A DNA stretch of 64,000 nucleotides from Marsupella aquatica. Its lineage: Eukaryota; Plantae; Marchantiophyta. A model generated the notes under the pieces. It made no database searches. It was not told the origin of the DNA and saw only the letters and a program-made list of their open reading frames with translations. Position numbers and translations under genes: made by a program. Positions within the stretch are counted from its first letter, which is position 1; each line of letters opens with the position of its first letter. Below are positions 5,758 to 46,740 of this stretch, one piece after another. The stretch lies in NCBI GenBank assembly GCA_973895155.1, contig OZ316899.1, positions 12,589,934 to 12,653,933 of the forward strand, read 5' to 3'.

Positions 5758-5765
5758 TATAAAAA
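5758..5765 (+). promoter_or_regulatory. TATA-like box upstream of the LTR-encoded ORF (C1)
   Basis: GGTATAAAAAGGG followed by a pyrimidine patch (CTCTCTCGTTCTCTCT), about 100 nt before ATG 5866. Conserved in C2 (32396-32402). Confidence 0.6.
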
Positions 5766-5865
5766 GGGAGCCGACCCTTTGTAGTGCACCAGTCCATCAA
5801 TCCACACGCCAGCTTCGACCCCAGCTCTCTCGTTCTCTCTTAGTTGCCACTGCTATCTCCTCTTA

Positions 5866-13541: not shown

Positions 13542-16500
13542 TGTAGAGTAGGGTTTAAGGAAATATGAATTACTTTCCTCTTAAACAACTAGAATTCGTT
13601 CCCGTTAAGAGCTTGTGAGACCTAAAAGATTGTATTAATATACTTTGAGATAGTTAAGCTAACTTATCTCAGATTTTAAGCCTTTACCAACATGCTTAGG
13701 TCAGATGGAAGGAGTTTTTAATACATCCTCAGGTATTGTGATGTTTGTATCATCAACAGTGCAATAATCAATTCTAAAACTATAATAAAACAACCAAAAG
13801 CCGGAGGCGTAAAGAGAGGATTAGGCGAGCCTTAAATGTCTCATCTCCTCTTGCCACTTAGCAATCTGTGACTAAGTTAGGCATGATTAAGAGTCAACAG
13901 AGAGTCTGACAAAATTAGGCTGATGCCTAAAGCTCATCTTTAAAGCCAACCATCTAAGAATTTGTAAAAGATGCATATAAGATAGCCCGTATTAACTTTC
14001 TGACCTATGTCAAGACAAAGGTGGTACTGATTACTCCGAACTAACTTATTCTTCTATTCAATCCTTCAGATTGCTCTTTTAGGACTACGCAATTTGTGAG
14101 TTCTCGTATGGTGTTTCTTCCACTAATACTTAATAAGCCATAAGTATTCCATAGTCAACATGAATCTTTAGACCTTTGCATGGACTCAGGCATGCATTTC
14201 CAGTCAGCCTAAAGGTTAACTATGACATTGCTAGTCACTTTCCATAGATTTTCTAGCAAGAATGGTCACACACTAATGTCCAAACACAAAGCATAGATCA
14301 CCAAAATTATGAATCTATTACTTCTCTTCAAAGAAGGAGACTTTCAAAAGTGAAATGCAAGTCTGAGTAAAATGGTGGAAACTTTCCCTCTTATACTTAG
14401 GGACAAGTCTCCTCTAAACAAAAGTTGAAGAGGTATGCCCCTTCAATTCCTAACCTAAGTGTAAAAGTAAAAAGTAATGCTAAAGTCTGAAACTAGACTA
14501 TGAGATAAAGTGCTCAGCAAAAATTCAAAGTCTAATTCTTCCTATACTAAGTTTTATAGGGCTTCAAACACGAAACCGGATCAAAAACCGAGTGGGAAAC
14601 CGGATGGAAAGCCGGTTCAACTTCCGGATGGAATAACTTTTTACTCTTCAGGAGTTGAACATCAATGAAGTACTGCTTGAATAGTTGGGTCTGTACCAGG
14701 TCCTCTCCCTTGGTTTCTACTAAGGGTTCCAGGTGATCCATAGCTCTGGAAATGTTATCGAAGAGTAGTTGCTCCACTGTGGTCTTCTCCTTTGCCTTGT
14801 GCAGCAACTGTTCAAGATGATACTTCTTCTTCTCTTTCTCTAATGATTTCTCTAGCTGCTCAATCTTGACCTTGTTCTCATCTCCTTTCATCAGGTCCTC
14901 CACTTTCTTCACAAGGTCAGCAGGAGCCACACCAGTCACATGGGAGAGCCTTGAGAGCACTGGTTCCATGATTCCCATCTTGGTCTTGATGGCCGAAAGA
15001 TCCTTGAATAAACAAGAAAAATGGTGTAGGGTAGAGTGTGAAAGACCAGCTGAAGAGGTAGTAGCGCCACTCATCGGGTAGGAAACCGGGTCAGAAACCG
15101 GTTCAGAAGCCGGTTCAGTTTTGTCGAGTTTCCTCTTCTTGGTTGGCCCTACAAAGTCGATCTCTTCCGGCTCTGGGTCATCTTCAGACTCTGGTAAGCT
15201 CTGAATTTCTGGATCCAAGACTCCATATTTCACATAGCTGCTCTTGGTGCCAAATGCACTCTTCTCATGTTTGAATAAGGTTTGGTCATGAGAGTATAGA
15301 TGTACCAAGTAACAGGAGAGAGCAGTGGGGGCTCTGTTGGACAGGGCGGAGACCTGCTTCTCTAGAACACTTGAGAAGATAGTAGCCCATGATACCTCTA
15401 TGGTTTTGAAGAAGGAAGCAATGATAGTACTTCCTACTTTAAGAATCACCCTCCTTGGTTTCTCTGGATAGATGAGGGGGACTAGGAATGCCATCACGTT
15501 CCTGAGGTCCTTGTGAGTACACTGGTTGATGGTCCATCCTTCTTTGGCATCCATCTTGCCACCAAAGTATTCCACTGTGAGATTCTCTCCTCTGGGGCAG
15601 AAGCCACTCCCTTTCACTGGTAGCTGAAAAGCTTCTCCAACGAATGCCTTGGTCCAAGCTTCTGGTCGAGCTCGTGCAGTCTTCTGAAATTCTGTGGGAG
15701 GAACTCCTGCCAGCACTTCCCTTACCATGTCTTCACTCAGAAATCCCCAAGTAAGATCCATCAAGGAGGCACAGCCCATTAGTGTAAGATCTTTTCGGAG
15801 CTGTTCCTTCTCAGCTGCATCAGTAGGAATGAGGGGTCTCAAGGGCTTCATGGTGATCTGAGCCTCCTTCCTCTTTGAACGTCGTACTTCAGGCTTTACT
15901 GGAGTCCCACTCTGAGTCTTGGAAGAAGGACTGCTCTTGGCACTCTTCATACTGCCTGGTAGTTGGAGTAGCAAACAGATTTGAACCGGTGAAGGCAGAA
16001 GGTATGAGCTAGAAGTGAATATAGCCTCTATAATTACTCCGTCGCGTATATCAGCCAACCTTCTCCATCTCAGCACACTTTCAGCGAAAACAAACGTCCA
16101 GCAAGCGAGATATAGCAGAAACCGGTTCGCCACCGGTTCAGTTCCGGTTCAGAAACCGGCTCAAGCCCCGGAAGTAGACAACTATCAAAACAGGGGGCCT
16201 TAGCGCCAATCTCCACATCCCCAGCCTTCCCTCCAAGCGTAGGAGTAGGCTGCCACCTCACACGAGTCTGTCAAGGATCTCTTATACCTTTCTCTCACAG
16301 AAACTAGAATGGTCCTATAATCCGGACCCAAGATCCTCAACCGAAAGGGAAGAGCCTCCTTTCTCTACTGCTTCAACAAGCCTATTCACTCGGGAGCTCA
16401 AAACTTACTCTGTTCAGCTTTGAGAGGTGTGAGAAGAGCAAAACCGGTTCGTCCTTAAGAGGGATTCCGGCTCACTGTCAGGAGTCCAATGCTTATGGGT

Positions 16501-16793
16501 TTTCCCCAGGACGAAGAGCGTAGCCTTGGCTTCAAGAACCTGGTGTTAGATTTTCTTGATAGCGTCCGGAGACAATTTTACGGCTTCCGGTTCGTGGTCC
16601 GGTTTCCTTCTCTTTACCAAGAAATACTTTCTTCCGATTGAGCCTCTTTTCCTTCTCTTAATCTCTTGAATGGTTGTTAGACTTTCAATAATGGTTTGCT
16701 TAGCATTTAAGGTTCTTCTTTCCCGCTTCAAAGGCAAAAAAAATTTAATTTTTCCACTTTCTTTATTCCTTTCTTCTTAACCATGTTATCACA
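13542..16793 (-). repeat. 3' LTR of element B (3252 bp; carries a 362-bp internal deletion relative to the 5' LTR)
   Basis: Direct repeat of 43122-46740. Begins TGTGATAAC and ends CTCTACA on the - strand. Lacks 44240-44601 (GAA microhomology). Confidence 0.95.
14547..15950 (-). CDS. LTR-encoded PMD-like + coiled-coil protein, family B (3' LTR copy; C-terminus altered by the deletion)
   Basis: Open frame 14547..16133 with first ATG at 15950 (MKSAKSS). Motif LMGCASLMDLTW...EDMVREVL...ARARPEAWT..F.LP...EGWTINQC...VMAFL aligns with the A and C LTR proteins. Confidence 0.8.
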   Translation of the reverse strand: MKSAKSSPSSKTQSGTPVKPEVRRSKRKEAQITMKPLRPLIPTDAAEKEQLRKDLTLMGCASLMDLTWGFLSEDMVREVLAGVPPTEFQKTARARPEAWTKAFVGEAFQLPVKGSGFCPRGENLTVEYFGGKMDAKEGWTINQCTHKDLRNVMAFLVPLIYPEKPRRVILKVGSTIIASFFKTIEVSWATIFSSVLEKQVSALSNRAPTALSCYLVHLYSHDQTLFKHEKSAFGTKSSYVKYGVLDPEIQSLPESEDDPEPEEIDFVGPTKKRKLDKTEPASEPVSDPVSYPMSGATTSSAGLSHSTLHHFSCLFKDLSAIKTKMGIMEPVLSRLSHVTGVAPADLVKKVEDLMKGDENKVKIEQLEKSLEKEKKKYHLEQLLHKAKEKTTVEQLLFDNISRAMDHLEPLVETKGEDLVQTQLFKQYFIDVQLLKSKKLFHPEVEPAFHPVSHSVFDPVSCLKPYKT

Positions 16794-25004: not shown

Positions 25005-28000
25005 TGTGGTGCGTCCCATGGCTCCCTAAACCCAAGAAACCCCCCAGCTCAAGCCGATTCCCGCAGGTTTCGCGCTTGGCGAGGCCGTTTCCGCGGCTTA
25101 GCGGCATGGGACGCTGCTAACCTTCTACTACTACTATTAACATTTTACACACATATACTGGACAGATCCTTCATCGGGTCATGAGATACGTAGCCGGCCT
25201 AATCTAGGCCTTCCCTTGTCTTCCCCTCCGTCTTGTTAGGTATGTTTGGATTCCGCCGCCGGAATGATCCCCAATAGGCTTGGTTAAGCCGCTAAGACCT
25301 CTCTCAGCTCGACACATCCAACTCTCACTCCCCTGCTTACTTTCCTTCCTTCTGTTAGTTGATGTGGGCACTCTTCACACAAGTTAATGTGACACACAAA
25401 TAGCAAAATGACTCATTCTGACTGAGTCATACCATGCACTTGCCATACAAACAGTACATCTCATACACAAGCTCTGCAAACTAAGCCGTGAGGCCAACTC
25501 TATTCAGCTCTTAGGCATGAGGAAACATGAATATACACAAGGGTCACTGTATGACTAACCGAGAGCTTCCCTTACTACTTGATCCCAGCCCGGCTGGTGC
25601 AAACTAAAAACTTGCTAAAGAAGAGGCCCTGAGCTCCCCGTTGCCCAGGTACTTATCCTGGTAGTGGATCCGCCTAATTCTTTGCAGCATAAGCCTAATC
25701 TACCTAACAGTAATCTACTTGCCCGGATCTACCTATGTACAGCAAGGCAGGAGCACAAGTGTTGCTCCTACCAGTGGAACCGCAATCCCACTAAGCTAAC
25801 TGTGAGGGCCGCTCCTGGTCCTGATCCTAATCCTAAACTTGGAGATCAGCGCCCGCCCTGCCCACTCACGCCTCCTACCTCCACGTCCGCCCTTCCTAAA
25901 AGGAACGGTGCCCTTGCACCGTCACGACACCGGTGGTGGATCCTCAATGGACGCCCCCAACGCTTCCTCCTCAGCCACTGCCGTAGGTTCGTTTTCTGAC
26001 AGATTACTTGCCTTTGACTGAGTCAACTCTCCATCGGCCTGACTGGGTCCACCATCGGCATCGGCTCGGGAATCATTCTCGGCTACGGCCTCAGCCTCGG
26101 CTATGGTCTCCCCGGCCTGCTCAAGAGGCGGATCTGGGATACCGGCCTCATTACTGAGTAGTTCGGCTTGGGCCGCACCATCCCCACCTTTGATGATAGC
26201 GGGATCTATTGTCGTGTTCATGCCGGAGGTTGGTGCTGGGTCTACCTCCTTGGTCACCACGGCCTGTGGAGTCAGATTACTCCTTGACCCTGAAGGTTTC
26301 CGCTTCTTCTTCTTTTCTGGTTCGGCAGCTGGTCCCTTCCCCTTCCCACTTACTTCCGGCACTGGTGCAGGTGGCGCGGCTTGTTCTTCGGCCAGTACCA
26401 CTCCTGGTAACTTGGTTGCCCCAATTGGAGTTGGGCCTGATGAAGACAAGCACTTAAATACTGCGGCTTGTTTCTTCAGCCGCTCTGTTTGGTTGTCGGC
26501 CCGCCGCTGGAGGTTCTCCATCTTCCTCGTGATTTCCTCCAACTCCTCCTGGGTCTCATCCAGGTCCTTGCGCGCCTCCTTTAGTTCCTTCTGGGCTTCC
26601 TCCCGTTCCCTGTGGGCTTCCTCCAGTTCTTTCTTCAAGGTAGCCCTCTCCTCTCGGGTTGCTCTTAGCTCCTTGTCGAGCTCTGCAATGATGACAGACT
26701 CCATCTGGTTCATCTTGGCGTAAGTCTGATCGAGCATCTCGTCCTTCTCCCTTAGGTCGGCCTTGAAGCTGGCCGTCAGGGACGCAAGCTCCTGCTGCAG
26801 CGCCATAATCCCTTGATAGGATTTCCCTAACTCGGCCTCCTTCTGCTCAAGGGCTCCGCGAATTTTCTCGAGCTCCCCCTTCAACGCCCATTCCTTTCTT
26901 TGGGTCTCCGCCATGGCCCGGCTGTTGGCTGTTATGTGGGCCTCCTCTGCATTCCTCAGCTCTCGCTTCCACTTCTCCCTCTCTTTGATCGTATCGGCCA
27001 ACTCTCCTTGGGTCCGCGTCAGTAGATTCTCGATCATTCGATTATCAGATTGTGCGGTATCCAACTGGCCCTGCATGATATTTAGCTCATGCCGCTTAAT
27101 CCGCAGCTCATCTTGGGCTTTCTTGGCCACCCTCAGGTCCTTGATTTCGGCTTCCCTTTCCCTAAGCCGACGGATGACCTCGTCCTTCTTGCTTCTTTCC
27201 AAGGCCACCGCTTCTTCTAATTGGCGCTTCTCCAACATCTCCCTCTGGAAAAAGGGTCCCTGCTCCAACTCCTCCCCAAAGATGCTGAGCGCCAGTTCTC
27301 CACACATCTCCCCGTACTCCATGGCTCTGTCTTTAGCATAGGTGGAGGAAGTAGAAGTCATCGGCATCATCCACCGCGGCCTCTGCTCCCAAGCCGTCTT
27401 GCGGATCTCTTCAATCGTGGCTAGAGGTTTGCTTCCTTTTTCGGCTAGCCGTTTGATGTCCTCCGGCCAATCTCCTCCTGGCAAATCCTTTTCTCTAGCC
27501 AGGGCTGCCTCCTCTTCCTGCCTGATTTGCTCCTGAAATTCCTGCGCCGTCTGTTTTATGCCGTCAAAGCTCGGGGGAGCAACATCTGGTGGGGGAGACT
27601 CAGGGCTACTCTGCTGGTTGGGGTCCCCTCGTACTACCCTTGGAAGTGTGGGGATAAACCGGCCATAGGTCCTTACTCCTGGAACGTGATGGTCCGACCC
27701 ATAGCCGGAGTTATCATGGCTGCAGTCCTCCACTGCCTCCTCTACTTCTTGGACTTCCGGCTTCTCCCTCTCCTCTTCGTCCGTAGGAGCTTCAGGCAAT
27801 TCTGCCTCAGATTCAGAGCTTGAGACTCCTACGTACATTCGAACACCCGGCTTGGATTATGGCCTCTCCTTGTCTCCAGTAAAGGGGTTTTCCCTTGTAA
27901 GCCGGTGTAGGCCTACCTCTGGAGCAGTGTCCTGCATTGTTGCCGTTGTCGTTGCCGATGTCGATCTCTTTTCTTTCTCCAGTAGTTTCAGCAGATTTTG

Positions 28001-29681
28001 CATGCCTGGTTGCTGCATCGGCAAGTCCTCCGTCCTTGGCCTAAACACCTGCTCGATCGTAGGGCTAACAGGTGGTTGAGGCTTCTCTGCTACCGGCCTC
28101 GGTGCTGGAGCTTCCTCGGGTGCCCTTACCTGTAGGGGAAGTACTGGGGCAAAGGTCTGACCTCTGGCATACCGGCACAACAGCGGCATGTGATAGCCAA
28201 GCTGCGACACGCTCCCCATGCCGATTACCTGCTGCTCCTCCTTTAAGATCTTCTTCAATTGGTTGAGGAGGTACCCGTTGTAGTCCCGGCTTGGGTCTGG
28301 CCTCTCTGCCAGATAGACCTGTGCCTTGCCGATCTCTGCCCTCGGCAAGTTACAGTGCATGGTCACCCTCAAGAAGTCGATCATCTCTCCTATGTGCGGG
28401 TTGGTGCAGGTGTTCCGGAAGAAGCCATTCTTCGTTGATGGCCCGGGGAACGACCGGAACTCCTTGTCAGGCAAGGTCTTCCTGGTATCAACTTTGATCT
28501 TATTGCCTATCGGCAAGCCAAACACTTCGGCAATCACCTTGGGAGTAAGATAGAAATCCTTCCCATATATCCTCGTGCAATTGGTCTCGGGTTCCCATGA
28601 CCCCACGAATTCTAATAGGTCTGAATCCGGCACCTCCAGCTTCAGCCATGGTAATCTTACAAAGGCCTCTAAGCCGGATCCGGCCATGAAGCCTTGGTAC
28701 TTCTTGGTTTGCATGGTCGTAAAGCATGCATCCTCCTCCCGTGCAAAATGTAGTTGCACCTCCACCGGTAGGGTTGCCGCCCAGCCTTTCCAGGTGTCAT
28801 CCCTGGTTGGAATGGCCTTGATGGGATCGACCTCCTCCTCTTCGGCTTCTCCCTGCCTCCTGCTCTGCTGCTCGGTTGGCTTCTTTGGTGCCGCCGACCT
28901 CGTTCTTTTTGCCGGGGTGGCTTCATCGTTGATGGCTCCCTTCCTCTTCATCTCTGCTGCCGTGGAGGTTTCTCCTAGCACCGTTGCCTGGGTCCACCTT
29001 TCCGTGCTACCCTTTAATTCCCAGTGTATGTCGTTGCAGTTCTTGATGGCGTCTCGAATGCCGATGATGTTGTCTTTGCAAAATAGAAGATCGTCGAGCT
29101 GATTGGAAGTAGGAGTCCACAAGAACTCGTCCTTGATGAGTTCGCCTCCTAAGAAAGCCGTCTTCTGCAGCTCCCACAATTGAGCGAGCTCCTGCCGTTC
29201 TCGAGCTGCCCTTTCTGATTCCTCGTCCTCGTAAGTCTTGATGTACTCAGTTTCCCGTTCGAACAGGCATCCCCAGAAATGTGCCGCTTGATTGACGTTG
29301 CTCATACCCTCCTTAGGTCGATCGTCGGTATCTACTCTCTCCCCGAGTGCTTGCCTAAGCAGCTGACAGTAGTTGGCCTCCCGTAGTCGTCTGCCTAGTT
29401 CGTGCTCGCAAATGAGCCACCATTTCTTGCAAGCACTCCTTACCCCTCTCCTCTTCCGGTCCTTCCTCCCCTTGATCCTTCCTAGCCGCCGACGCTTAAC
29501 GTGCCCTAACCCTAATTGAGTTTTCACCCCCAACTTCCTTACCTCCAGCCTCGGCCCGGGTTCCATGGTCGCCCCTAATTGTTTATATTTTCCTTGTTTT
29601 GTCCCTATACTAAGGTGTTTCTAGGGTGCATTCCTGCTTTACCCACTTAACTGGCCGAGTGATTCCTGTCTAGGCATCACA
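25005..29681 (-). repeat. 3' LTR of A2 (4677 bp)
   Basis: Direct repeat of 39900-42668 apart from a 1910-bp deletion in the latter. Bounded by the TSD and the PPT. Confidence 0.95.
25922..29566 (-). CDS. LTR-encoded PMD-like + long coiled-coil protein, family A (about 1214 aa; one in-frame TAA at 27857)
   Basis: ORFs 27857..29566 and 25922..27838 are in the same frame, 18 nt apart. The A3 copy reads through (P-E-H-K-P-G-V-R-M-Y versus P-*-S-K-P-G-V-R-M-Y). Motif EFVGSWEPETNCTRIYGKDFYLTPKVIAEVFGLPIG. Heptad-rich E/K/L/R stretch. TATAAA at 29582-29587. Confidence 0.85.
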
Positions 29682-32036
29682 TAGCTCCCCACTTAATTGT
29701 GAAGCGTCCTCGCGAACAACTTCATCTTCGTCCATATAGTATTTCTTGAGGCGGTCATAATGGATGCGAACTGGATATACTTCTCCCGTAATGTTGGCCA
29801 ATTGTACGGATCCATTGGAGAACTTCATGGTTACTCTAAAGGGTCCTAACCAGCGAGTGTAAAGCTTTCCTGGAAACTTACTATACCTACTGTCATAAAG
29901 TAACACAAGATCACCGGTGTGAATACTAACTACTTTCAACTTTTTATCATACTGCTGCTTCATGATATTCTGTCTATATTCTACTCTCTCGGCTGAAATC
30001 ATTCTAGCCTCCTCTAAAGCTTCTAACCTATGTTCTCGCTCCTTTAGGCTCTCCTCCGCTGAGGCTCTTTCCTCAATTGTAACTTGAAATGTCGGTATCT
30101 CAAGTTGCATGGGTACCAGGGCTTCTTGTCCAAAGGTTAAGAAGAAGGGTGTATGACCGGTAGTGGATTTATAGGCTAGATTGTAAGCAAAAACAGCAGC
30201 AAACAATTTATCATCCCAATCAAGTTTGTTCTGAGCTACTGTCTTGTTCAATATCTTTCCTATAATTCCGTTTGCTCGTTCTGTCAACCCATTTGCCTTT
30301 GGATGGTAGGGAGTAGTAGGCCTATGTCTAACTAAATACTGCTCATTTAAACGACTAATTATATCATTCAGAAAATGGGTTCCTCTATCACTAACTAATT
30401 CTAGGGGTGCTCCATACCTGGTGAAGATCTGCTCATACATGAATCTAGCCGTAGTAATTGCATCATCCTTCGTGGTCGGTCTGGCCTCTACCCATTTAGT
30501 TGCATAATCCGTAGCCAGGATTATGTACTTGTTCCGTCGAGGGTGGGTCAGTGGTTTCAGAGGTCCGATGTAATCAATACCCCACTTCTCGAATGGTGCC
30601 AGAGGTAGAATAGGGTGCAGTGGATGTCTGGTGGACGCCCTTGGTCCTCCCGCTCGTTGACAAGGATCGCATTGTTTGATAAACTGATAGACATCCTTGT
30701 GCAAGGTGGGCCACCAGTAACCGGCATTTAATATCTTTTTAGACGTGGTTACTGGGGCAAAATGTCCTCCGGCCTCCTCTCCATGCATGGCCCGTAGGAC
30801 TCATTTTACCTCTCCCTTTTCCAAACACCTTTGAATCGTGCCGTTGATTCCATGCTTGTGCAGTATGCCTTTAATGCACTGATACTGTCTGACCTTCCGC
30901 ACAAAGACTGCGGCTTGTTCTCGGCTTAATCCTGGCTGTAATCTGGAAGTGCTGAGAAAATGTAAAATCTCAGGGTACCATGTATCAGCTATTTCCACAA
31001 CGAATAGCTCCTCGTCGGGGAATCGATCATCGATGCAATCCGTGGCAGGTTCACCTGTGATTCTTGAAAAAAAATCGGCATTGGCATGTAATTTTCCCGG
31101 CTTGATCCTCAGCTCATAGTCAAACTCCTGTAATAGCAAAATCCATCTTGCTACTCTGCCTGTAAGGTCCGGCTTATTGACTAGGTACTTCAAACTTTCA
31201 TGATCGGTATGAAAGATTACCTTGTACCCTAGTAAATAATGCCTAAACTTTTTACACAAATAAATGACTCCTAATGCTTCCCTCTCTGTGGTGGAGTAGT
31301 TCCGTTCGGCATCGGCAAGCTGACGGCTTGCGAAGTATATAGGATGGTCCCTTCCTTTCTCATTTAACTGACTTAGTACTGAGCCGATACAGAAGCCCGA
31401 GACATCTACAAAAACATGAAAATCTTTGTTCCAGTCCGGTGCTATCATGACTGGGGCCTCTACTAACATCTGCTTCAATTCTACCACTGCTGTGACTCGT
31501 TTGGGTGTGGGTTCGAAGTCTGCTCCTGCCTTGAGCATGTTGGTTAATGGTAAAGCTAGCTTGGCAAAATCCTTGATGAACCGGTGATAGTAACCAATGC
31601 ATCCCAAGAAGGATCTTACATCCTTTATGTTCTTAGGTTGCATGATATCTAGCCATACTGCTAGCTTACCTTTGTCAATCTCAATGCCCTTCCTTGATAC
31701 CTTGTGACCTAGTAGCACCCCCTCGGTTACTGCAAAGAAACATTTATCTGGGTGTAACTTGAGACCCACCTCTCTGCATCTCATGAAGGTTTTTCTGAGA
31801 TATTTAGCATGTTTCGATGCCTTCCCGAATACTGCAAAGTCATCAATGAAGATTTCCATGAACTTTCTCAAGTAATCATGAAAAATGTTCACCATCAATC
31901 GTTGGAACATAGCTGGTGCGTTGCAGAGTCCAAACGGCATACGATTGAAGACATAGATCCCCCATTCCGTGATGAAGGCCGTCTTGATTTGGTCTTCCTG
32001 CCGAATCCTGATTTGGTTATAACCAGAGTACCCATC
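29670..32036 (-). pseudogene. A2 pol: RT (C-terminal part), RNase H, integrase; the reading frame runs through the PPT into the 3' LTR
   Basis: YSGYNQ, MPFGLCNAP, FIDDF, NYSTTEREAL, WGIDYIGP, SDRG and WLGPFRV motifs. Stop at 29670 lies 10 nt inside the LTR. Confidence 0.93.
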
Positions 32037-35000
32037 TGTGACGCCGCCGGTACGGCGGTTAATGAGTGATTCAGTTTAACTGCGCTCGGCACGCGCGTTA
32101 GGAGTGTCTTAGGCCGCTATTATTAGCATAACGACAGTATTTAGGTAATCATTATGGGTAGGATATCATTAGGCAATAAGGGGGAATTCAGGTTCGGACT
32201 GGCGGCTGGTCGCTATTCGCACACCCGGGTTACGAGCGTGGAGGGGCCCCTCCCTCGGGTCCGTATAACAAACTTAAGGAAGCGGCCACTGACACGCGCT
32301 GACTCAGACCGGCGGAGTGGCCGACACACCACAAGCGTGAGCGGTTCAGCCTATGGGCATCGAGGAGACGTCGGGGGATCGACAAGCCCTCAAGGTATAA
32401 AAGGGGAGCCAACCCTTTGTAGTGCACCAGTCCATTAGTCCACGCGCCAGCTTCGACCCTAGCTCTCTCGTTCGCTCTAAGTCGCCACTATCTCCTCTGA
32501 ATGTCGCACACGATCCTCTCCAACTCGGCCATTCGATTCTGGACGCAGTTCCTATCTACCGGAAGGCACTTGGCCGACTCATTGAAACACGCCAACCCGC
32601 GCCGATACAAAATCGAACGCGAGTACGAGAGAGCCATCCTCCTAGCAGGACGACACCACTACATCCTTAACTTTGACTACCCGTCTCAGAGCGAGCTTTA
32701 TCGACCAGCAGAGGTATCCGCGTACTTCTTCAGCGGAGACAAATATATCGGGTTCTGGGAAGCATTGCTTCGGCTTCCGGACGAGGTCTTCAATATCCCG
32801 GGTATGATCGACTTGCAACGACATCACTTTGACCACATCCCTGCTCAGGTTCGGGCTATCATCAACAGCGAGTCCAGCACAACCCGTTCGACAAGGTCGT
32901 CTGCACTCGCTTCGGAGAACTTCTACCAGCACCTACAGAGCTTCATAGGAACTCGGCCAGCAACCAACATGACCAACTCAGTCGTACCCGTACCCGTACC
33001 CATACAACCTCAGGCTCAACTTCAGCTTCAGCCGCAGCCTAGCCAAACCCCACCACCGATCGCCCAGCCAGCACAAGTACGCTCCGTCATCAACGCTGTG
33101 GATCTTAGCGATGACGACGAGGCTACCCTACCCTTGACCAGGTGGCCCAGAGGAACAAGCGCTCAGGGGGCCGACACTATATCGTCCCCACCCCCTGCTC
33201 TGACCCCAGGAGCGGCCCCGGCAGACAACATGGTGACCGTGGCCGACCCGGGCCCGTTACTAACGGCAGCGGCACTACCCAGGCCCGATCGGGAGGATGG
33301 GGAGGTGTCACCTTCCCCGAGCCAGTCACGGGGGAAGAAGAGGAAGGAATCCGCCACTGCATCCGGGTTACCGTTGGCCACGGTAGTCGTGGCCAAGGTG
33401 ACGATGCACCGCATGGGGGAAAACATTCACAAAAACATCCTCCATCCCAAGCATGCGGTGTACCTGAAGACTCAGGGATTCGAGCACCTCGCCTCCCTCC
33501 CCTGGAACACTTGCAGGTACTACGGGGAGGACATGACGGAGTTCGTCAGGAATTATGACGACGCGCGTCAACATACTCGGCTGCAGGGAAGGAGTATGTC
33601 CCTCACAAAAGAACGGCTCAGGATGATCTTCGAGTTACCCGAAGGTGACCATCGAGTCGAATCACGGGCTCCCGGGGGCAAGGGAGCCAAGTACCAATCT
33701 TCAAGTTTTCCCTCAGAGGGAGCAGTGGACAACGGGTTCGTGATGAAGACCTGCCTCATCCCCGAGATAGCTGAGCGACTGGAGTTCCAGAGGTACGCCC
33801 TCCACATGATGGAACCCCGGGGGGAGATCTCCGCCGCCCAGGTTATCCAGGTCGAGAACTATCAACCTAGGAGGTGGGCGTCGTACTTCGCTAAGAAATT
33901 CCATGAAGAGATGGAGCGGCGAAGGAAGACGCTGTACATTGGCGGGAAGGCGTATTTTGCTAGCCACATCGAGATCATTCTTGAGTGGTACGCCCGGTTT
34001 GATCGACGAACCCTTCCCCGTGTCAACGTTACAAAGCTGGTCCCAGCTAGGTGGGTTTTCCCGGCCTTGGAGAGACGGCCCCAACCCGAGCCCCGAAGTC
34101 CAGCGGACACGCCAGCTTCACCCACCGCACCTCCACAAGTAGCTGTAGTCGTAACCAAAGAGGTACCGGATGGGTCGGTTGTCGCAACCGTTGATGCGAC
34201 CCAACAAGCCGGGCTAAGTACAGAAGTCGGTACGACGGAGGTCTTACCCGAGCCAGGGTCTCCCAAAGACCCACCGATGGCTATTCCGGAGAACCGGACA
34301 TTGCTGCAGGAGGACACTCCAGCCCTTCCAACGTTACGTCCTCAGGGCTGGACGTCACTGCCCCGGCCCCCGCGCGTGTTGATGTCTGCCCGTGCCCAAC
34401 TCCGGACAGGCACAACCTGGACCACCCGGAACTCTTCGTACCGGGTACATTTCTGAATGGGCTTCTGGGAGATTTCTCTCATCAAATTGCCCGGGATACC
34501 GGGGAGTTCATGGCCCGAAAGGTAGCTTGTTTCTTCAATCAGGAGTTGGTTGCCGCAGTAAAGGCAGGTCGGGCCCAGTCAGAGGCCCTTCAGAGAATAG
34601 AGCGGTACCGAGTGGAGTCCGTGTACCTAAAGAACGAAGTTGCGGCTCAAGAGGCTGAGCTTCTGCAACTACGACCCAAGGTTGCAGCCGCCAATGAGTT
34701 GTTAGCAAAGGCGCACGCTCTTACCGCCCTAGCCGAACAGGCCAAAGCTGGGAACGAGGCCGAGATTACACGACTCCGGAACCAGATTGACAGTTTGAAG
34801 AATCAAACTGTCACCTGGCAGAAAGACCTGGAGGAGGCCGAGGAACGGGCCCAACGGGACACGGCGGAGATAGCCACGCTGCAGACCGAGGTGGTGCGGC
34901 TCCAAACCGAGGCCGAGAAGCAGGACCAGCTGGCGGGTAAACTGACAAGTGACGCCCAGCAGCTGGAGGAGGCTTGTCAGGAGGCAGCAGAGGAGACGGA

Positions 35001-36026
35001 CGCGGCGAGGCGAGAGAACGAATCTCTGCTGGACCAGGTCCAGCTCCTCAAGGCGGACAATGACAGGCTTCGAAGGCAGCGGGATGGCCGCTCCCATTCG
35101 GGCGGCTCTGGCAAGCGTGCCAGGCATTAGCAGCGGAGTAGGAATAGATTAGGATTAGGACTGGCTTAGTCAGGCTCTTGGGACAGGCACCTGCCTTAGG
35201 TACAGCAGCGCTGCCGTGCTGTCCAGCCTGCGTAGATTAGGATCTTCTAATAAGACACAGCCGTTTTCCGGCCTGACTGTCAGCTTAGTTAGGACCTTAG
35301 TCAGCGAATCTTCGGCGAGAGGACACCCCGTCCCTCGCCCCTTAGTATTTAGTGCACCCCTCGGTAGAGGCAGGGGGGTTTTTAGTTGCAGAGTTGGGCG
35401 TCCGCGGTATGTGCGTGGAGTCCCGACCTCTGGGAATGAAAGAGTACCAAGGGGAGGGGGTAGGACTAAGCTCGCCGGGCGAGTGCGGAGCCGGGCTCCG
35501 TTGTAGTGTGCACCCTCGGCCTTGGACCTGTTCATTCCGGGGCTGTCAGGTCAACTAAGTGTACACATATGTTCCCTTTGTAGTAAAATCCTTTCCCATC
35601 ATTTTCCTTCGTGTAAATCGAGATTGTATGCATGTGCGCGTGTATGTGTGTGGGTTTCTCGTATATGGGTGGCAGCGCCAGGCCGAACGCACTACCCGAG
35701 ACGTGCACAGGGTGCAGCCTGCGGGTAAGTGGTTGCGAGCACGGGTTGAGGACCTGTATCATCGAATCCGGATCGAAGGCGGACAGCACGAAGGCTTAGA
35801 AGCCCTTAAGCCGGGGTTGATCCTACTATCGACTAAGGTACATTCCGGCGGCGGAACACAAACCATACCTAGGAGGTGTCCGTATTTAGCAGTATGCGCA
35901 CTTAGCGCTAGTTTACGAGAATAAGGTGCATTACGTGCTTCCCTTCCTGCCCGAACCCTCAGATTTACGAGGGATGTGCCCGTCTAAGCTGAAGTCTGAG
36001 TTAAGGCCGCAGCCGATGACGTGACA
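32037..36026 (+). mobile_element. Solo LTR of family C (C2, 3990 bp) inserted into A2 reverse transcriptase
   Basis: TGTGACG...CGTGACA flanked by TSD CCATC (32032-32036, 36027-36031). Splits RT at SFMDG|YSGYNQ. No PBS or PPT adjacent. Confidence 0.96.
32501..35130 (+). CDS. LTR-encoded PMD-like + coiled-coil protein, family C (single 1-bp frameshift near 34325)
   Basis: ORFs 32501..34456 and 34510..35130. Comparison with C1 (7690-7710) shows a 1-nt deletion. Motif QGFEHLASLPW...DMTEFVRNYD..RQHTRLQGRSMSLT.E.L.MIFELPEG. Confidence 0.85.
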
Positions 36027-39000
36027 CCATCCATGAATGAATATAGTTCATGACTGGCTACCATGTCTAGTACCATATCAGTAAAGGGTAAGGGAAAATG
36101 GTCTTTTAACGTTGCTTCATTCAGCTTCCTGTAATCCTGACAAACCCGGATCTTGGGTTTACCATCGGGTCCAGCTTTCTTGGGAACTATCACAATTGGA
36201 GACACCCAGTCTGAATGTAGGACTGGAGTGATGAATCCAGCTTCCACTAGTTTGTCGATTTCCATTTTGACCAGCAGGGAATACTTCGGGTTCATCCTTC
36301 GAATTGGTTGTCGAAATGATTTGGCTCCTAACATGAGATCAATTCGATGTTCCCCTAATGTTGGATCTACTCCCTTTAGATCTTGGTGACTCCATGCAAA
36401 CACATCCTGAAATTCAATCAATAAGTCACTGATCTCTCTCTCGAGCTCAGGTGCTAGGTTTCTCCCTAAGTTTAGTTCCCTTCCCTCTCCTAAGTTGAGC
36501 TTCCGATATTGCCGTGCTTGGATCATATTAATCTGCTTCTTCAAATTCGGGTCCAGCTCGGCGTCCAATCTCTCCAGTCTCATACCTCCATAAACTGGAA
36601 TCTCGGCTGTACTAGCCGAGTCGGTCTCTTCCTTGGTGTCCATAGATTGTCCCCTTGCCGGTTTATCCGGTTTTGAATTGGTGGTCGGCTTCCCTTCCTG
36701 CCTCGGCTCTGGATTCTGTCTGTGCATCTCATCCACCTCTTCCTCCTGAGGGTCAGTCCGCTGTGCTCTCCCGGCTTCTAATAGGGCCTCAATTTGTTCT
36801 GCCCTCGTAATCGGCTTGTATGCCGATCCCTTGGTATTTAATTCCTTGCCGATGATCGATGGCGTTGTGAACCCTGCCGGCTCTACCACAACGCCTGCAG
36901 AAAATCCACTGTCCCTGCTACTGCTCCCCACTTAGCCGTTTTATCCAATTGGTCTACATCCTTTACTTCCTCTGGAATTGCAGCTAAAAAGGTGGATTCT
37001 ATTGTAAAGCAGTCCTTGACCTCTTCGTCTTCTTCTTCCAAGTCACCTTCCATTGGTTCTTGCCATAATCCGCTGGGGGGTACCTCCGGTCCAAAGACAC
37101 TTTCTTCGGTTAGGTCAGTGAGGCATTCTAGCCAACGGACTTCATCGGCTGACTCCAGTCCACTATCGTACCCGTCTACCTCCCTGATGCTTTTCCTACG
37201 GTCATCCTTAGTGTCCCAGGATACCGTGATAGAGGGGGTCCCGAAAGTGAACTACTTTTTACCCCAATCTTCTATTACCTCGGCTAGGTATAGCCACGGC
37301 CTACCAATCAATAGCCGGAATGACGTAGGATTTACCGGCTTCATTACTACATAGTTAATGCTAAAAAAAACACCTCCTATCTCTGTCTTGATGCCGGTTA
37401 ACACTCCCGTGGGAATGACCTGATACCCATTGGCCATGTTTAGCACTCTTCCAGTCATCTCTAGTGTTAGACCCCACCCTTTTGCTATTGAATCAATCAT
37501 AATACATACCCCTGATCCTCCATCGATGGGTACCCGTAGTAATAATTCTCCTTGAATCATTAATGGTAATGCTGGGGCTCCTTGATCTTCTTCTATCATT
37601 AGTACGTCGGATCTGGTCGCTACCTTGGATAATCTCGGCTTGTCGAGAATAGCCTTCCTTAATTGCTTCCGGAAGTACGGGCTATTTTTCAATAGTTGAC
37701 CAACTGTTGCCGAGACTCTAGACTCTAGTACATCTTTAGCCAGGTCATAGGGAACAATCGGCTTCTCCTCTGGTGGTGTCTCCATCTTGGATTCGGCCTA
37801 TTTTGCCACGCTAGTCTCCACAGCTGTTGGATCCTCCAAAGCAAACAATGCTTTTGCTCGTTTCACATCCTTGGCAATGGCTTCGGTATTCTCCAGGGTT
37901 TCTAATTCTCTCAGTTGTTCCTTAACACTAGCCGTAACAGAGGGGTAGAACAACTTAGGATGATCTCGATTGAAGTCGCTATCTTGTGAAGGATTGGGTT
38001 CACTGGTGGGCTCATGGCTTACCTGTATTGCCGGAGCCCTCCCTTCTCCTTCCGTTGATGTTGACGAAGAGTCGATCTTTTCCTCCGTAACCTTCCCTTT
38101 ATTTTTGGCCAGCCCATCTCACCTTTCCTTCCTTCTGGTAGATCGAGTAGAGACCCGGTAGCAATCATGATCTAAATCCTCTTCTGAGAAGGTTGATAGG
38201 GCTTCGGCCTCATCATCAAATGGTACAAACTCTGCCTCGGCATCCTCTTGCCATCCTAGTTTGATGTGGTTGATTTGAACTCCTCCGGGGGTAGTACCTG
38301 GCGGTAAGACCTTTACTGGCAAAAGTTTATGATTTGCGGCCAGGCCTGCCACCCAAGTAGGACATTGCCCTAGCATATGACCTTCCTGTCGGCATCCCAG
38401 ACATAGCTGAGCTGGTTGTCCATCACCCTGTTTGCATGCATTCGGGCATTCTCTAGCAAAATGGCCAGGTTGACCACAATTATAGCATGCCGCAAATCTT
38501 TGCACATTCGGCCTAGGAGATACTGACGGGTTCTGAATAATCCGAGGATACATCTCTCCTGGATTGTTCCTTAATCCTGACCACATGGATGCAGGTCTGT
38601 TGGATAGGTCTCGTGCTCCAGTCTCACTGATGCCGAAAACACTATCAGCGGCATCTCCTAAAAAGTACTCTACTTCTCCCTAACATGGTCTGATCTCGGC
38701 CACATGCCGAACATGATTAGTATTAAGTTTAGGACACGCATCTTTATGGTGTCTGGTTTTATAACATAAGGCACACCATACAGAGCTATCCTCCTGTACT
38801 ACCTTCTTCTTCGGCTTTACCTCTGCAATTATAGCCTTAAGTTGCTCGATAAGGGCCACGATGTTATCTGTGGCTTAGCCTCCAGCTTGACTTTCGTCTT
38901 CCCTCTCCTTCTGCCCTTCCTTTTCCTAGTTTTTTCTTCTTCAGAACTAGAAGATGACTCACTCTTGCTACTTCCACTATCCGAGCTTGAGTTATCACTT

Positions 39001-39830
39001 CTTGACTTCTTAGAATGTTTCTTCTTCTTATCTTTTTTTTTATGGGGAGATCCCTCCTCTGATGAGGAACTCTCAGACTTAAGCTGTTTCTTCCGGCTTG
39101 TGATATCTGCATTAATGTATAATTGAATATCCTTAATTGCATCGGCTAAAGTCTCCGGGTTCTCCTTCCTAATTGCAAAACTCATCTTCTGTGGCAAAGC
39201 ATTCACCAACCATTGAAGTTGCATACCTTCAGATGCATTGGTCTTTGTACGTCTTACCAGTTTCTGAAAGCGTTGCAAGAACTTCCTGAAGGATTTGTTC
39301 TCCTTGAACCGAAGTCGTCCCAACTTCAGCACTGCTAGTTCTGAAGTTCCAATGGGTCAAAACTCCTTAACAAAGAGTGTTTTGAAGATATCCCAGATGG
39401 CTTGATCTTCCACATCTAATGCTCTGTACCAAGGCCTAGCCTCACCCTTGAACAGGCCGGGAAGAATCTGCATCTTGATGGCCGATTCTCCATTTGCTGC
39501 AGCGGTTCCCTTGAAATCATCCAACCATTCGTCCGGATCCTCATCTCCTCTCCCATGAAATGCCTTGTAATGTATGCGCGACCGTTGGCTCAGTCTGGTC
39601 CCTGGCCTCTCGTCTGGCCGTGCCTCTGGTTCCCCCATGTCGGTTGGAGACTCACTTCTCCTTACCGACTCTTCTTCTGGTATGTCTTCTTCGACGCCAC
39701 TTCCAGCTTCGGAGCTACCAGCTCTTTCTGCCCCTCTCAGTCGCTGTGTATCATGCCACTCGGCGAGCTGCTGCAGTCGAGCTCTCTCCCGTTGAATCAC
39801 TCTTTCTTCCCTCGGTGTAAGGTCAGTCAT
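36027..39830 (-). pseudogene. A2 gag-protease-RT (N-terminal part), disrupted
   Basis: Gag core, 3 CCHC knuckles, VPIDGGSGVCIM protease, LLIGRPWL, and WVSPIVIVPKK..IRVCQDYRKLN RT start. Multiple stops and frameshifts. Confidence 0.93.
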
Positions 39831-39877
39831 TACCTACGCTTCCTTTTTAACTTCATATCTCACGGCTTAAGAAATGC

Positions 39878-39895
39878 CCCCTCCATCTAGCGCCA
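39878..39895 (-). promoter_or_regulatory. Primer-binding site, tRNA-Asn type (A2)
   Basis: TGGCGCTAGATGGAGGGG on the - strand, 4 nt from the LTR end. Confidence 0.85.
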
Positions 39896-39899
39896 AAAA

Positions 39900-42668
39900 T
39901 GTGGTGCGTCCCATGGCTCCCTAAACCCAAGAAACCCCCCAGCTCAAGCCGATTCCCGCAGGTTTCGCGCTTGGCGAGGCCGTTTCCGCGGCTTAGCGGC
40001 ATGGGACGCTGCTAACCTTCTACTACTACTATTAACATTTTACACACATATACTGGACAGATCCTTCATCGGGTCATGAGATACGTAGCCGGCCTAATCT
40101 AGGCCTTCCCTTGTCTTCCCCTCCGTCTTGTTAGGTATGTTTGGTTCCGCCGCCGGAATGATCCCCAATAGGCTTGGTTAAGCCGCTAAGACCTCTCTCA
40201 GCTCGACACATCCAACTCTCACTCCCCTGCTTACTTTCCTTCCTTCTGTTGTTGATGTGGGCACTCTTCACACAAGTTAATGCGACACACAAATAGCAAA
40301 ATGACTCCTTCTGACTGAGTCATACCATGCACTTGCCATACAAACAGTACATCTCATACACAAGCTCTGCAAACTAAGCCGTGAGGCCAACTCTATTCAG
40401 CTCTTAGGCATGAGGAAACATGAATATACACAAGGGTCACTGTATGACTAACCGAGAGCTTCCCTTACTACTTGATCCCAGCCCGGCTGGTGCAAACTAA
40501 AAACTTGCTAAAGAAGAGGCCCTGAGCTCCCCGCTGCCCAGGTACTTATCCTGGTAGTGGATCCGCCTAATTCTTTGCAGCGTAAGCCTAATCTACCTAA
40601 CAGTAATCTACTTGCCCGGATCTACCTATGTACAGCAAGGCAGGAGCACAAGTGTTGCTCCTACCAGTGGAACCGCAATCCCACTAAGCTAAGTGTGAGG
40701 GCCGCTCCTGGTCCTGATCCTAATCCTAAACTTGGAGATCAGCGCCCGCCCTGCCCACTCACGCCTCCTACCTCCACGTCCGCCCTTCCTAAAAGGAACG
40801 GCGCCCTTGCACCGTCACGACACCGGTGGTGGATCCTCAATGGACACCCCCAACGCTTCCTCCTCAGCCACTGCCGTAGGTTCGTTTTCTGATAGAGTAC
40901 CTGCCCTTGACTGAGTCAACTCTCCATCGGCCTGACTGGGTCCACCATCGGCATCGGCTCGGGAATCATTCTCGGCTACGGCCTCAGCCTCGGCTATGGT
41001 CTTAGGGTTTAGGGTTGGCAAGTCTTCCTTCCTTGGCCTAAACACCTGCTCGATCGTAGGGCTAACAGGTGGTTGAGGCTTCTCTGCTACCGGCCTCGGT
41101 GCTGGAGCTTCCTCGGGTGCCCTTACCTGCAGGGGAAGTACTGGGGCAAAGGTCTGTCCTCTGGCATACCGGCACAACAGCGGCATGTGATAGCCAAGCC
41201 GCGACACGCTCCCCATGCCGATTACCTGCTGCTCCTCCTTTAAGATCTTCTTCAATTGGTTGAGGAGGTAGTCCCGGCTTGGGTCTGGCCTCTCTGCCAG
41301 ATAGACCTGTGCCTTGCCGATCTCTGCCCTCGGCAAGTTACAGTGCATGGTCACCCTCAAGAAGTCGATAATCTCTCCTATGTGCGGGTTGGTGCAGGTG
41401 TTCCGGAAGAAGCCATTCTTTGTTGATGGCCCGGGGAACGACCGTAACTCCTTGTCAGGCAAGGTCTTCCTGGTATCAACTTTGGTCTTATTGCCTATCG
41501 GCAAGCCAAACACTTCGGCAATCACCTTGGGAGTAAGATAGAAATCCTTCCCATATATCCTCGTGCAATTGGTCTCGGGTTCCCATGACCCCACGAATTC
41601 TAATAGGTCTGAATCCGATACCTCCGGCTTCAGCCATGGTAATCTTACAAAGGCCTCTAAGCCGGATCCGGCCATGAAGCCTTGGTACTTCTTGGTCTGC
41701 ACGGCCGTAAAGCATGCATCCTCCTCTCGTGCAAAATGTAGTTGCACCTCCACCGGTAGGGTTGCCGCCCAGCCTTTCCAGGTGTCATCCCTGGTTGGAA
41801 TGGCCTTGATGGGATCGACCTCCTCCTCTTCGGCTTCTCCCTGCCTCCTGCTCTGTTGCTCGGCTGGCTTCTTTGGTGCCGCCGACCTCGTTCTTTTTTC
41901 CGGGGTGGCTTCATCATTGACGGCTCCCTTCCTCTTCATCTCTGCTGCCGTGGAGGTTTCTCCTAGCACCGTTACCTGGGTCCACCTTTCCGTGCTACCC
42001 TTTAATTCCCAGTGTATGTCGTTGCAGTTCTTGATGGCGTCTTGAATGCCGATGATGTTGTCTTTGCAAAACAGAAGATCGTCGAGCTGATTGGAAGTAG
42101 GAGTCCACAAGAACTCGTCCTTGATGAGTTCGCCTCCTAAGAAAGCCGTCTTCTGCAGCTCCCACAATCGAGCGAGCTCCTGCCGTTCTCAAGTGCCCTT
42201 TCTGATTCCTCGTCCTCGTAAGTCTTGATGTACTCAGTTGCCTGTTCGAATAGGCATCCCCAGAAATGTGCCGCTTGATTGACGTTGCTCATACCCTCCT
42301 TAGGTCGATCATCGGTATCTACTCTCTCCCCGAGTGCTTGCCTAAGCAGCTGACAGTAGTTGGCCTCCCGTAGTCGTCTGCCTAGTTCGTGCTCGCAAAT
42401 GAGCCACCATTTCCTGCAAGCGCTCCTTACCCCTCTCCTCTTCCGGTCCTTCCTCCCCTTGATCCTTCCTAGCCGCCGACGCTTAACGCGCCCTAACCCT
42501 AATCGAGTTTTCACCCCCAGCTTCCTTACCTCCGGCCTCGGCCCGGGTTCCATGGTCGCCCCTAATTGTTTATATTTTCCTTGTTTTGTCCCTATACTAA
42601 GGTGTTTCTAGGGTGCATTCCTGCTTTACCCACTTAACTGGCCGAGTGATTCCTGTCTAGGCATCACA
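39900..42668 (-). repeat. 5' LTR of A2 (2769 bp), internal deletion bridged by telomeric filler
   Basis: Lacks the equivalent of 26110-28019, replaced by TAGGGTTTAGGGTT at 41003-41016. Fused ORF 40815..42167. Confidence 0.95.
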
Positions 42669-43118: not shown

Positions 43119-43121
43119 AAA

Positions 43122-46100: not shown

Positions 46101-46740
46101 ACCGGCTCAAGCCCTGGAAGTAGACAACTATCAAAACAGGGGGCCTTAGCGCCAATCTCCACATCCCCAGCCTTCCTTCCAAGCGTAGGAGTAGGCTGCC
46201 ACCTCACACGAGTCTGTCAAGGATCTCTTATATCTTTCTCTCACAGAAACTAGAATGGTCCTATAATCCGGACCCAAGATCCTCAACCGGAAGGGAAGAG
46301 CCTCCTTTCTCTACTGCTTCGACAAGCCTATTCACTCGGGAGCTCAAAACTTACTCTGTTCAGCTTTGAGAGGTGTGAGAAGAGCAAAACCGGTTCGTCC
46401 TTAAGAGGGATTCCGGCTCACTGTCAGGAGTCCAATGCTTATGGGTTTTCCCCATGACAAAGAGCGTAGCCTCGGCTTCAAGAACCTGGTGTTAGATTTT
46501 CTTGATAGCGTCCGGAGACGATTTTATGGCTTCCAGTTCGTGGTCCGGTTTCCTTCTCTTTACCAAGAAATACTTTCTTCCGATTGAGCCTCTTTTCCTT
46601 CTCTTAATCTCTTGAATGGTTGTTAGACTTTCAATAATGGTTTGCTTAGCATTTAAGGTTCTTCTTTCCCGCTTCAAAGGCAAAAAAAATTAAATTTTTC
46701 CACTTTCTTTATTTCCTTTCTTCTTAACCATGTTATCACA
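43122..46740 (-). repeat. 5' LTR of element B (3619 bp)
   Basis: Direct repeat of 13542-16793. Bounded by the TSD and the PBS. Confidence 0.95.
44221..45896 (-). CDS. LTR-encoded PMD-like + coiled-coil protein, family B (5' LTR copy; frameshift near 44605)
   Basis: ORF 44574..46079 (ATG 45896) overlaps ORF 44221..44604, which supplies the C-terminus that is deleted in the 3' LTR. Confidence 0.78.

What the first reader, a model, noticed from the sequence alone, without database searches (positions are those of the whole stretch)
28270..28720. The LTR protein's conserved domain resembles the plant mobile domain (PMD / MAIN-like): candidate anti-silencing factor
Seen: EFVGSWEPETNCTRIYGKDFYLTPKVIAEVFGLPIG. 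Known: the PMD (PF10536) signature is roughly ALVERW.PETHTFH...GE.TITL.DV...LGLPI.G. Arabidopsis PMD proteins MAIN and MAIL1 act in transposon silencing and gene expression, and PMDs are carried by Gypsy and MULE elements. The plant transposon domain PF20167 is an alternative match. The proteins have basic NLS-like patches (KRTRS, KKRKE, KKRKL) and no transmembrane segment. Inference: a nuclear, oligomerising chromatin regulator encoded by the very LTR it could regulate.
Basis: partly seen in the sequence, partly recalled or inferred. Interest (0 to 1): 0.75.

Follow-up and report, generated by a model that had tools for sequence, protein, structure and literature searches.

The report
Anti-silencing-type gene inside retrotransposon LTRs
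Three jumping-gene families in this plant DNA carry a protein gene inside their own end repeats, and its conserved domain is predicted to share the shape of VANC21, a known transposon protein that binds its own DNA and lifts silencing, so it likely helps each family stay active.

Summary
The quoted peptide is real (28505-28612, minus strand). It lies in a ~210-residue domain of a ~1,127-codon gene inside the 4.68-kb LTR of a gypsy element; this copy has one internal stop. The domain is under purifying selection (dN/dS 0.17). Two other LTR families in the window carry related genes, one in a solo LTR.

It is not a Pfam PMD member: no PF10536 hit for it or for 66 homologues. The nearest family lead is Transposase_32/ATHILA. 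However, its AlphaFold2 model (pLDDT 92) has VANC21 bound to DNA (9LNK) as top match among 48,161 chains (Z 8.7, 203 of 210 residues; next Z 2.4). Published work links the VANC and MAIN/MAIL1 PMD folds.

Family A also carries its own hexamer, AWGCCG, enriched about 3-4-fold in the LTR gene, gag, pol and non-coding DNA, a candidate binding site.

Best reading: a likely VANC-like, family-specific DNA-binding anti-silencing factor encoded in the LTR (about 0.5). Expression, binding and effect on methylation are untested. Named relatives are from liverworts. Verdict: new variant of a known kind.

The parts
25005..29681 (-). 3' LTR of gypsy family A (4,677 bp, TG...CA) that holds the gene
29306..29681 (-). 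Likely promoter and 5' leader; the frame is open here but evolves neutrally (dN/dS 1.5 for codons 19-106); TATAAA-like box about 95 bp into the LTR
   Evidence: promoter role inferred
25922..29305 (-). LTR gene, about 1,127 codons from the likely start Met; this copy is broken by one in-frame stop at 27857-27859
   Evidence: another window copy is open across the same place
28976..29305 (-). Conserved N-terminal ~110-residue domain of unknown type, weakly similar to the start of the family B protein and its relatives
   Evidence: dN/dS 0.24; 11.1 bits versus at most 6.2 in 500 shuffles
28895..28909 (-). Basic patch KRTRS (NLS-like, untested)
28151..28780 (-).
   Evidence: 65 homologues; dN/dS 0.17
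27857..27859 (-). In-frame stop specific to this copy
   Evidence: most or all laid contig depth differs at this codon in 6 of the 8 runs laid, the other 2 show no cover in that row
26447..27259 (-). Long predicted coiled coil (about 270 residues)
   Evidence: only sub-threshold coiled-coil Pfam hits; dN/dS 0.13 on 73 codons
26297..26314 (-). Basic patch KKKKRK (NLS-like, untested)
25005..25921 (-). Non-coding 3' part of the LTR with 3'-UTR-like TGTA-rich stretch and the palindrome TTCCGGCGGCGGAA (25251-25264) shared with LTR B
   Evidence: role inferred
29670..39833 (-). gag-protease-RT-RNaseH-integrase of element A, no chromodomain or second RNase H hit; integrase ORF ends inside the LTR start; interrupted by solo LTR B
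39878..39895 (-). Primer-binding-site-like sequence (tRNA-Asn type, recalled, not tested)
39900..42668 (-). 5' LTR of element A, 98-99% identical to the 3' LTR, with a ~1.9-kb internal deletion; keeps the globular domain
32037..36026 (+). Solo LTR of family B (3,990 bp, TSD CCATC) with a homologous gene from 32501 (domain about 33377-34000, then a frameshift and a coiled coil)
   Evidence: 28% identity to A domain; dN/dS 0.20
5399..9394 (+). 5' LTR of a family B element with a decayed copy of the gene
13542..16793 (-). 3' LTR of family C with a more distant gene (domain about 15249-15836)
43122..46740 (-). 5' LTR of family C with the same gene
46742..48565 (-). Older family A LTR, split by the family C element; it continues at 13541-12819

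Best explanation
The LTR of this gypsy family contains a selected protein gene whose central domain is predicted to have the VANC21 fold, and the protein likely binds a short family-specific DNA motif spread over its own element and likely keeps that family from being silenced. SHOWN: gene inside the LTR in three families; purifying selection; top structural match to VANC21; AWGCCG enrichment specific to family A. INFERRED: the first ~380 bp of the LTR is the promoter and the last ~900 bp ends the transcript, so both LTRs and solo LTRs would be complete transcription units acting in trans; basic patches would import the protein; the coiled coil would oligomerise it; AWGCCG would be its site; binding would lower DNA methylation or Polycomb silencing, as for VANC and MAIL1/MAIN.
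For: Model pLDDT 92.1, pTM 0.88, no templates. Top hit 9lnk_A, VANC21 with target DNA: Z 8.7, rmsd 4.0, 203 of 210 residues, 9% identity; only 1 of 48,161 chains at Z>=5, next 2.4. The entry was released in December 2025, after AlphaFold2's training (recalled). The family C model also ranks 9lnk_A first (Z 5.7, rmsd 4.3, 177 aligned; next 3.0). dN/dS 0.17 (A) and 0.20 (B), close to gag/protease values of 0.09-0.31. AWGCCG observed versus synonymous-shuffle expectation: LTR gene 21/6.5, gag 10/2.5, pol 13/4.5; non-coding 6/1.3 under a Markov control. Held-out check: AAGCCG and ATGCCG rank 3 and 4 of 2,080 hexamers in the LTR gene alone, 4 and 1 in gag-pol alone, and 318-1994 in the six other coding sets. 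VANC proteins bind short motifs that accumulate in their own TE. VANC21 is predicted to self-associate through a coiled coil.
Against: Foldseek found nothing in PDB at E<=0.001 and did not list 9LNK. Z 8.7 is near the typical best Z (7-8) for models without a Foldseek match, and a shared fold shows no function. The C model shares most alignment rows with the A model, so it is not independent. No Pfam hit to DUF1985, PMD or PF20167 for the protein. The motif is scattered through coding DNA, not in the non-coding tandem arrays typical of VANC targets. Family B shows no motif above the shuffle maximum; the C motif AACCGG is strong in its LTR but ranks only 90 in C gag-pol; AWGCCG is also mildly raised in C gag (5 vs 1.3). 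CpG observed/expected in family A (0.59-0.66) is below that of the copia element (0.80), so no general protection from methylation decay is seen. The domain's net charge is near neutral (26 K+R, 24 D+E). All window copies of the A gene are broken.
Confidence: 0.5

Rival explanations
1. Same fold and DNA binding, but another job: a transcriptional trans-activator, a copy-number repressor, or a tether for integration or nuclear import of the element, with no direct effect on silencing marks.
For: A fold match gives no function (note). Plant extra ORFs have been proposed to act like retroviral accessory proteins. No sign of raised CpG retention across family A.
Against: The characterised relatives of this fold, VANC and MAIL1/MAIN/MAIL2, both oppose silencing at motif-bearing targets. 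Motif copies run through the whole element rather than clustering at the promoter or the ends. CpGs in the motif are somewhat better kept between copies, 49 of 59 against 285 of 411 (sites counted from both copies, so p 0.03 is optimistic).
Confidence: 0.3
2. The protein is a distant ATHILA ORF1/Transposase_32-type accessory protein that acts on RNA or particles (export, packaging, scaffolding), and AWGCCG is a host transcription-factor site or a mutational signature unrelated to it.
For: Atlas feature hits are PF20167 clusters (0.90, 0.89) and a PF03078 cluster (0.89). 1 of 66 homologues hits PF20167 at E 0.006. The motif resembles GCC/DRE cores of AP2/ERF factors (recalled).
Against: Whole-domain match to a DNA-bound VANC21 structure. 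Bases after the hexamer are not fixed as GCC or DRE boxes would need. The motif is confined to one family, and family C has a different one. No transmembrane segment, so an env-like role is unlikely.
Confidence: 0.15
3. A true PMD (PF10536) captured from a host gene or an Ogre-like element, acting like MAIN/MAIL1 on host genes.
For: By eye, the W-to-GL spacing (26 residues) and one Thr match PMD sequences seen in the Ikeda 2017 supplement. Gypsy elements carry PMD-A.
Against: No PF10536 hit; no usable Atlas hit once PF20167/PF03078 are skipped; the domain is ~200 residues against ~340-370 for the PMD rows seen; the ET[HN]TF motif is absent from the family alignment.
Confidence: 0.05

Closest known systems
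VANC21 (DUF1985) of VANDAL Mutator-like DNA transposons; PDB 9LNK
   Same: Predicted fold over nearly the whole domain; TE-encoded; coiled coil; a family-specific short motif in the own element.
   Different: Encoded by an LTR retrotransposon and inside the LTR; 9% identity and no DUF1985 Pfam hit; host probably a liverwort while VANC is described as dicot-specific; motif dispersed through coding DNA, not in non-coding tandem arrays; activity untested.
Plant mobile domain PF10536 (MAIN/MAIL1/MAIL2; PMD-A of Ogre-type Gypsy elements)
   Same: Local pattern around the hairpin and GLP turn; reported structural homology of PMD with VANC; carriage by Gypsy elements.
   Different: Fails the HMM test; shorter domain; PMD survey covered angiosperms only; reviewed extra ORFs lie in the internal region, not in the LTR.
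Transposase_32 (PF20167) / ATHILA ORF1 (PF03078) extra ORFs
   Same: Closest family by language-model features and one weak homologue hit; accessory ORF of non-chromovirus gypsy elements; Athila domain also predicted to oligomerise by coiled coils.
   Different: Far below the gathering score (16.9 against 45 bits, one homologue only); position inside the LTR.
LTR-encoded retroviral genes such as MMTV sag, HIV nef, foamy virus bel/tas (recalled, no call)
   Same: A coding sequence within or overlapping the LTR.
   Different: Here the whole ~3.4-kb gene fills about 72% of the LTR, has an unrelated fold, and is in a plant retrotransposon.

Membership tests
Plant mobile domain PF10536 | HMM score at or above the Pfam cut-off | tested here: not met
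   No hit at E<=1 for P0001; 0 of 66 homologues at E<=0.01
Plant mobile domain PF10536 | W-x-x-ET[HN]TF...T[IV]TL.DV...LGL signature | tested here: inconclusive
   Spacing matches by eye in this copy, but the ET[HN]TF core is not conserved in the family
Plant mobile domain PF10536 | Fold like MAIN/MAIL1 | not testable with these tools
   No AlphaFold DB library; only indirect support through VANC21 and papers
Transposase_32 PF20167 / ATHILA PF03078 | HMM score at or above the Pfam cut-off | tested here: not met
   Query none; 1 of 66 homologues at 16.9 bits against cut-off 45
Transposase_32 PF20167 / ATHILA PF03078 | Remote similarity by language-model features | tested here: inconclusive
   Scores 0.89-0.90, 146-151 shared features of 256; a lead only
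VANC / DUF1985 anti-silencing proteins | VANC21-type fold | tested here: met
   Z 8.7, rmsd 4.0, 203 of 210 aligned, next Z 2.4; missed by Foldseek
VANC / DUF1985 anti-silencing proteins | DUF1985 Pfam hit | tested here: not met
VANC / DUF1985 anti-silencing proteins | Encoded by a VANDAL/MULE DNA transposon | tested here: not met
   Encoded in gypsy LTRs
VANC / DUF1985 anti-silencing proteins | Family-specific short motif accumulated in the own element, often as non-coding tandem repeats | tested here: inconclusive
   AWGCCG specific to family A and cross-validated, but dispersed and not in tandem arrays; none clear for family B
VANC / DUF1985 anti-silencing proteins | Sequence-specific DNA binding and induced hypomethylation | not testable with these tools
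   Needs EMSA/DAP-seq and methylome data
Ty3/gypsy non-chromovirus LTR retrotransposon | TG...CA LTRs, TSD, PBS, PPT, gag-PR-RT-RH-INT order, no chromodomain | tested here: met
   the exact lineage (Athila, Tat Z, Phygy, Selgy) was not tested

The most novel reading that the evidence does not exclude
Liverwort gypsy elements run a VANC-like sequence-specific anti-silencing system from inside their LTRs: each family encodes its own reader and carries its own motif, and solo LTRs act as stand-alone trans-activating genes. VANC, PMD and ATHILA/Transposase_32 would then be one ancient TE-borne fold older than flowering plants, so VANC need not derive from capture of a host MAIN-like gene.
Probability: 0.4. 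Interest if true: 0.88.

Novelty: new variant of a known kind. Interest (0 to 1): 0.72.

Why it matters
In the papers read here, sequence-specific anti-silencing by a plant TE protein is shown for VANC of eudicot DNA transposons, and most extra ORFs of plant LTR retrotransposons have no known function. A VANC-fold gene in retrotransposons of a non-seed plant, with a named candidate motif, makes the function of these ORFs directly testable. It also bears on whether the PMD fold began in TEs or in host genes, which Ikeda 2017 leaves open. A gene inside the LTR survives solo-LTR formation, the usual way hosts purge retrotransposons, so the remnants could still act in trans. New reader-motif pairs would add to epigenome-editing tools.

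Tried and rejected
No result: word-indexed homologue search with the domain; the 'longer' search, which covered only 1,368-3,905 aa and so says little; PDB sequence searches; Foldseek against PDB and its VIA second look; metagenome loci; Rfam over 24900-43200; earlier findings (the one does not bear on this).

BFVD gave one unnamed hit, A0A890CAY5 (E 0.016, TM 0.34), not used. No RNA holder was listed, so expression is untested. No whole genome is held, so copy number, intact copies and solo-LTR share were not measured; summed contig depths are not copy numbers.

Rejected: a start at the first Met (29566), because codons 19-106 evolve neutrally; an env-like role (no transmembrane segment); the repeats as segmental duplicates (TSDs and LTR termini). 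Direct A-versus-C profile comparison was weak (probability 5%); C joins only through the second-round profile (E about 1e-8 in a small local set). No complex job was run. The VANC21 structure paper and Sasaki 2022 were not held, so DNA-contact residues were not mapped. bioRxiv supplements showing the PMD-VANC overlay could not be seen.

Full report
OBSERVATION. The quoted peptide is encoded at 28505-28612 on the minus strand and again at 41493-41600. It lies in frame 27857-29620, which continues in the same frame after one stop to 25922. Another window copy is open across the position of that stop. Contigs of 6 of the 8 public runs laid differ at that codon in most or all of their depth; the other 2 show no cover in that row. 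The stop is therefore damage to this copy. The three basic patches cited come from three different families, and there is no transmembrane segment.

CONTEXT. Self-comparison and boundary inspection show nested gypsy elements. Element A spans 25005-42668 with TSD GTCCC, TG...CA ends, a primer-binding-like site, a purine tract and gag-PR-RT-RH-INT without chromodomain. Its 3' LTR is 4,677 bp and begins at the end of integrase, so there is no room for an ordinary extra ORF between pol and the LTR: the gene is inside the LTR. Family B (3,990-bp solo LTR, TSD CCATC) and family C (3.3-3.6-kb LTRs, TSD TTGGT) also hold long ORFs. B is 28% identical to A over 185 residues. C is distant: weak in direct comparison, found by the second-round profile.

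CODING STATUS. Against the older A copy, dN/dS is 0.17 for the domain, 0.24 for codons 107-215 and 1.5 for codons 19-106. Shifted frames are neutral. The coiled coil gives 0.13 (A) and 0.17 (B), the B domain 0.20; gag and protease give 0.09-0.31. The young LTR pairs A1/A2 and C1/C2 have too few differences to test. The likely start is the Met at 29305, whose following residues align weakly with the N-termini of B-type proteins. That leaves about 380 bp of leader, similar to 465 bp in B, and about 1,127 codons: N-terminal domain, basic patch, globular domain, linker, coiled coil, basic patch, acidic tail.

RELATIVES. A profile search of 1.84 billion proteins gave 65 at E<=0.001. Of 20 looked up, 7 carry an organism name: 6 Calypogeia fissa and 1 Riccia sorocarpa. 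The C-family relative is also from C. fissa. A liverwort host is thus inferred, not shown, and I did not check whether these relatives lie in LTRs.

FAMILY TESTS. Pfam gives nothing for the protein at E<=1. Of 66 homologues, 0 hit PF10536 and 1 hits PF20167 at E 0.006, below its cut-off. The ESM Atlas ranks an unnamed cluster (0.91), PF20167 clusters (0.90, 0.89) and a PF03078 cluster; with those families skipped nothing usable remains. PMD sequences in the Ikeda supplement show the same W-to-GL spacing by eye but a longer domain and an ET[HN]TF core that this family lacks. It is not a PF10536 member.

STRUCTURE. AlphaFold2 with 52 sequences gave pLDDT 92.1. Foldseek found no PDB match. The wide VIA search of 48,161 chains ranked 9lnk_A, VANC21 bound to target DNA, first: Z 8.7, rmsd 4.0, 203 of 210 residues, next Z 2.4. 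The C-family model (pLDDT 83) also ranked it first at Z 5.7, next 3.0, though it shares most alignment rows. The Z is moderate, but the gap, the coverage and the fact that the hit is a plant TE accessory protein argue for real homology.

CANDIDATE TARGET. VANC binds short motifs enriched in its own TE, so I looked for family-specific words. AWGCCG was picked after the fact and then tested. It exceeds controls in all four parts of A: 21/6.5, 10/2.5, 13/4.5 (synonymous shuffle) and 6/1.3 (Markov), each at the floor p 0.005 of 200 shuffles. It does not in B, C pol, the C LTR gene, copia or LINE; C gag is mildly raised at 5/1.3. Ranked separately, its two forms are in the top 4 of 2,080 hexamers in both non-homologous halves of A, which share 4 of their top 20 words against 0-2 for the other 27 pairs. 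Against this reading: the motif is not in tandem arrays, B has no clear motif, and CpG content of A is not unusually high.

MECHANISM. Most likely (0.5) the LTR is a self-contained transcription unit whose product enters the nucleus, oligomerises, binds the family motif along the element and opposes silencing. Gene position, selection, predicted fold and motif enrichment are shown; transcription, localisation, binding and chromatin effect are inferred. The rivals are a DNA-binding regulator with another job (0.3), an RNA or particle factor with an unrelated motif (0.15) and a true PMD (0.05). Whether the gene lies in U3 or in a very long R region cannot be told without RNA; no RNA holder was listed.

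LITERATURE SEEN. Neumann 2019: passages and section 9. Vicient and Casacuberta 2020: parts 1-2 of 3, covering the main text. Passages only: bioRxiv 2024.09.27.615353 (37), PMC13547354 (outline 78), PMC5735166, PMC5418596 (supplement rows 103), PMC11728184, PMC7466625, PMC13468544, PMC12859917, PMC13317346, PMC12885004, PMC6673714, PMC10508981. Tanaka 2026 and Sasaki 2022 were seen only as citations. Searches listed no report of a protein gene inside plant LTRs or of a VANC-fold protein in bryophyte retrotransposons; the library lacks most subscription papers, including Steinbauerova 2011. MMTV sag, nef, tas, the tRNA type of the PBS and the GCC/DRE likeness are recalled.

VERDICT. Observation confirmed; interpretation partly supported. 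New variant of a known kind: a VANC/PMD-superfamily accessory gene placed inside LTRs, with a candidate cognate motif. Interest 0.72.

Noticed in passing
window 41002-41016: The 1.9-kb deletion in the 5' LTR of element A has two telomere-like TTAGGGT units at its junction, possibly filler from break repair.
   Followed up: no
window 25251, 40145, 2606 (family A); 9211, 35843 (family B): The palindrome TTCCGGCGGCGGAA is shared by LTRs A and B about 170-250 bp before their ends, though the LTR DNA is otherwise unalignable; no Rfam match.
   Followed up: partly
window 23966-24880 (-): Family C has a further 305-codon frame upstream of gag with no Pfam hit, next to the site where element A inserted.
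   Followed up: no
window 15082-15118, 16120-16154, 19834-19909, 23596-23635: Family C carries short 12-bp tandem arrays around AACCGG(TT) in the LTR, pol and leader, closer to VANC-type target arrays than family A's dispersed motif.
   Followed up: partly
window 12819-48565: Four-level nest: solo LTR B in the RT of element A, A in the leader of element C, C in an older A LTR; TSDs CCATC, GTCCC and TTGGT.
   Followed up: yes
window 53249-54238: An inverted repeat with ~340-bp arms, 94% alike, about 300 bp apart, MITE- or foldback-like.
   Followed up: no
window 59458-64000 (+): An uninterrupted copia polyprotein frame of at least 1,514 codons; a LINE RT lies at 48993-52070.
   Followed up: no
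P0067 (Riccia sorocarpa): One homologue has a weak DDE_Tnp_4 hit at its N-terminus (E 0.0008): a gene-model fusion, or the domain also rides on DNA transposons.
   Followed up: no
BFVD A0A890CAY5: An unnamed 805-residue viral-database protein is the only fold hit above noise (E 0.016, probability 0.77).
   Followed up: no
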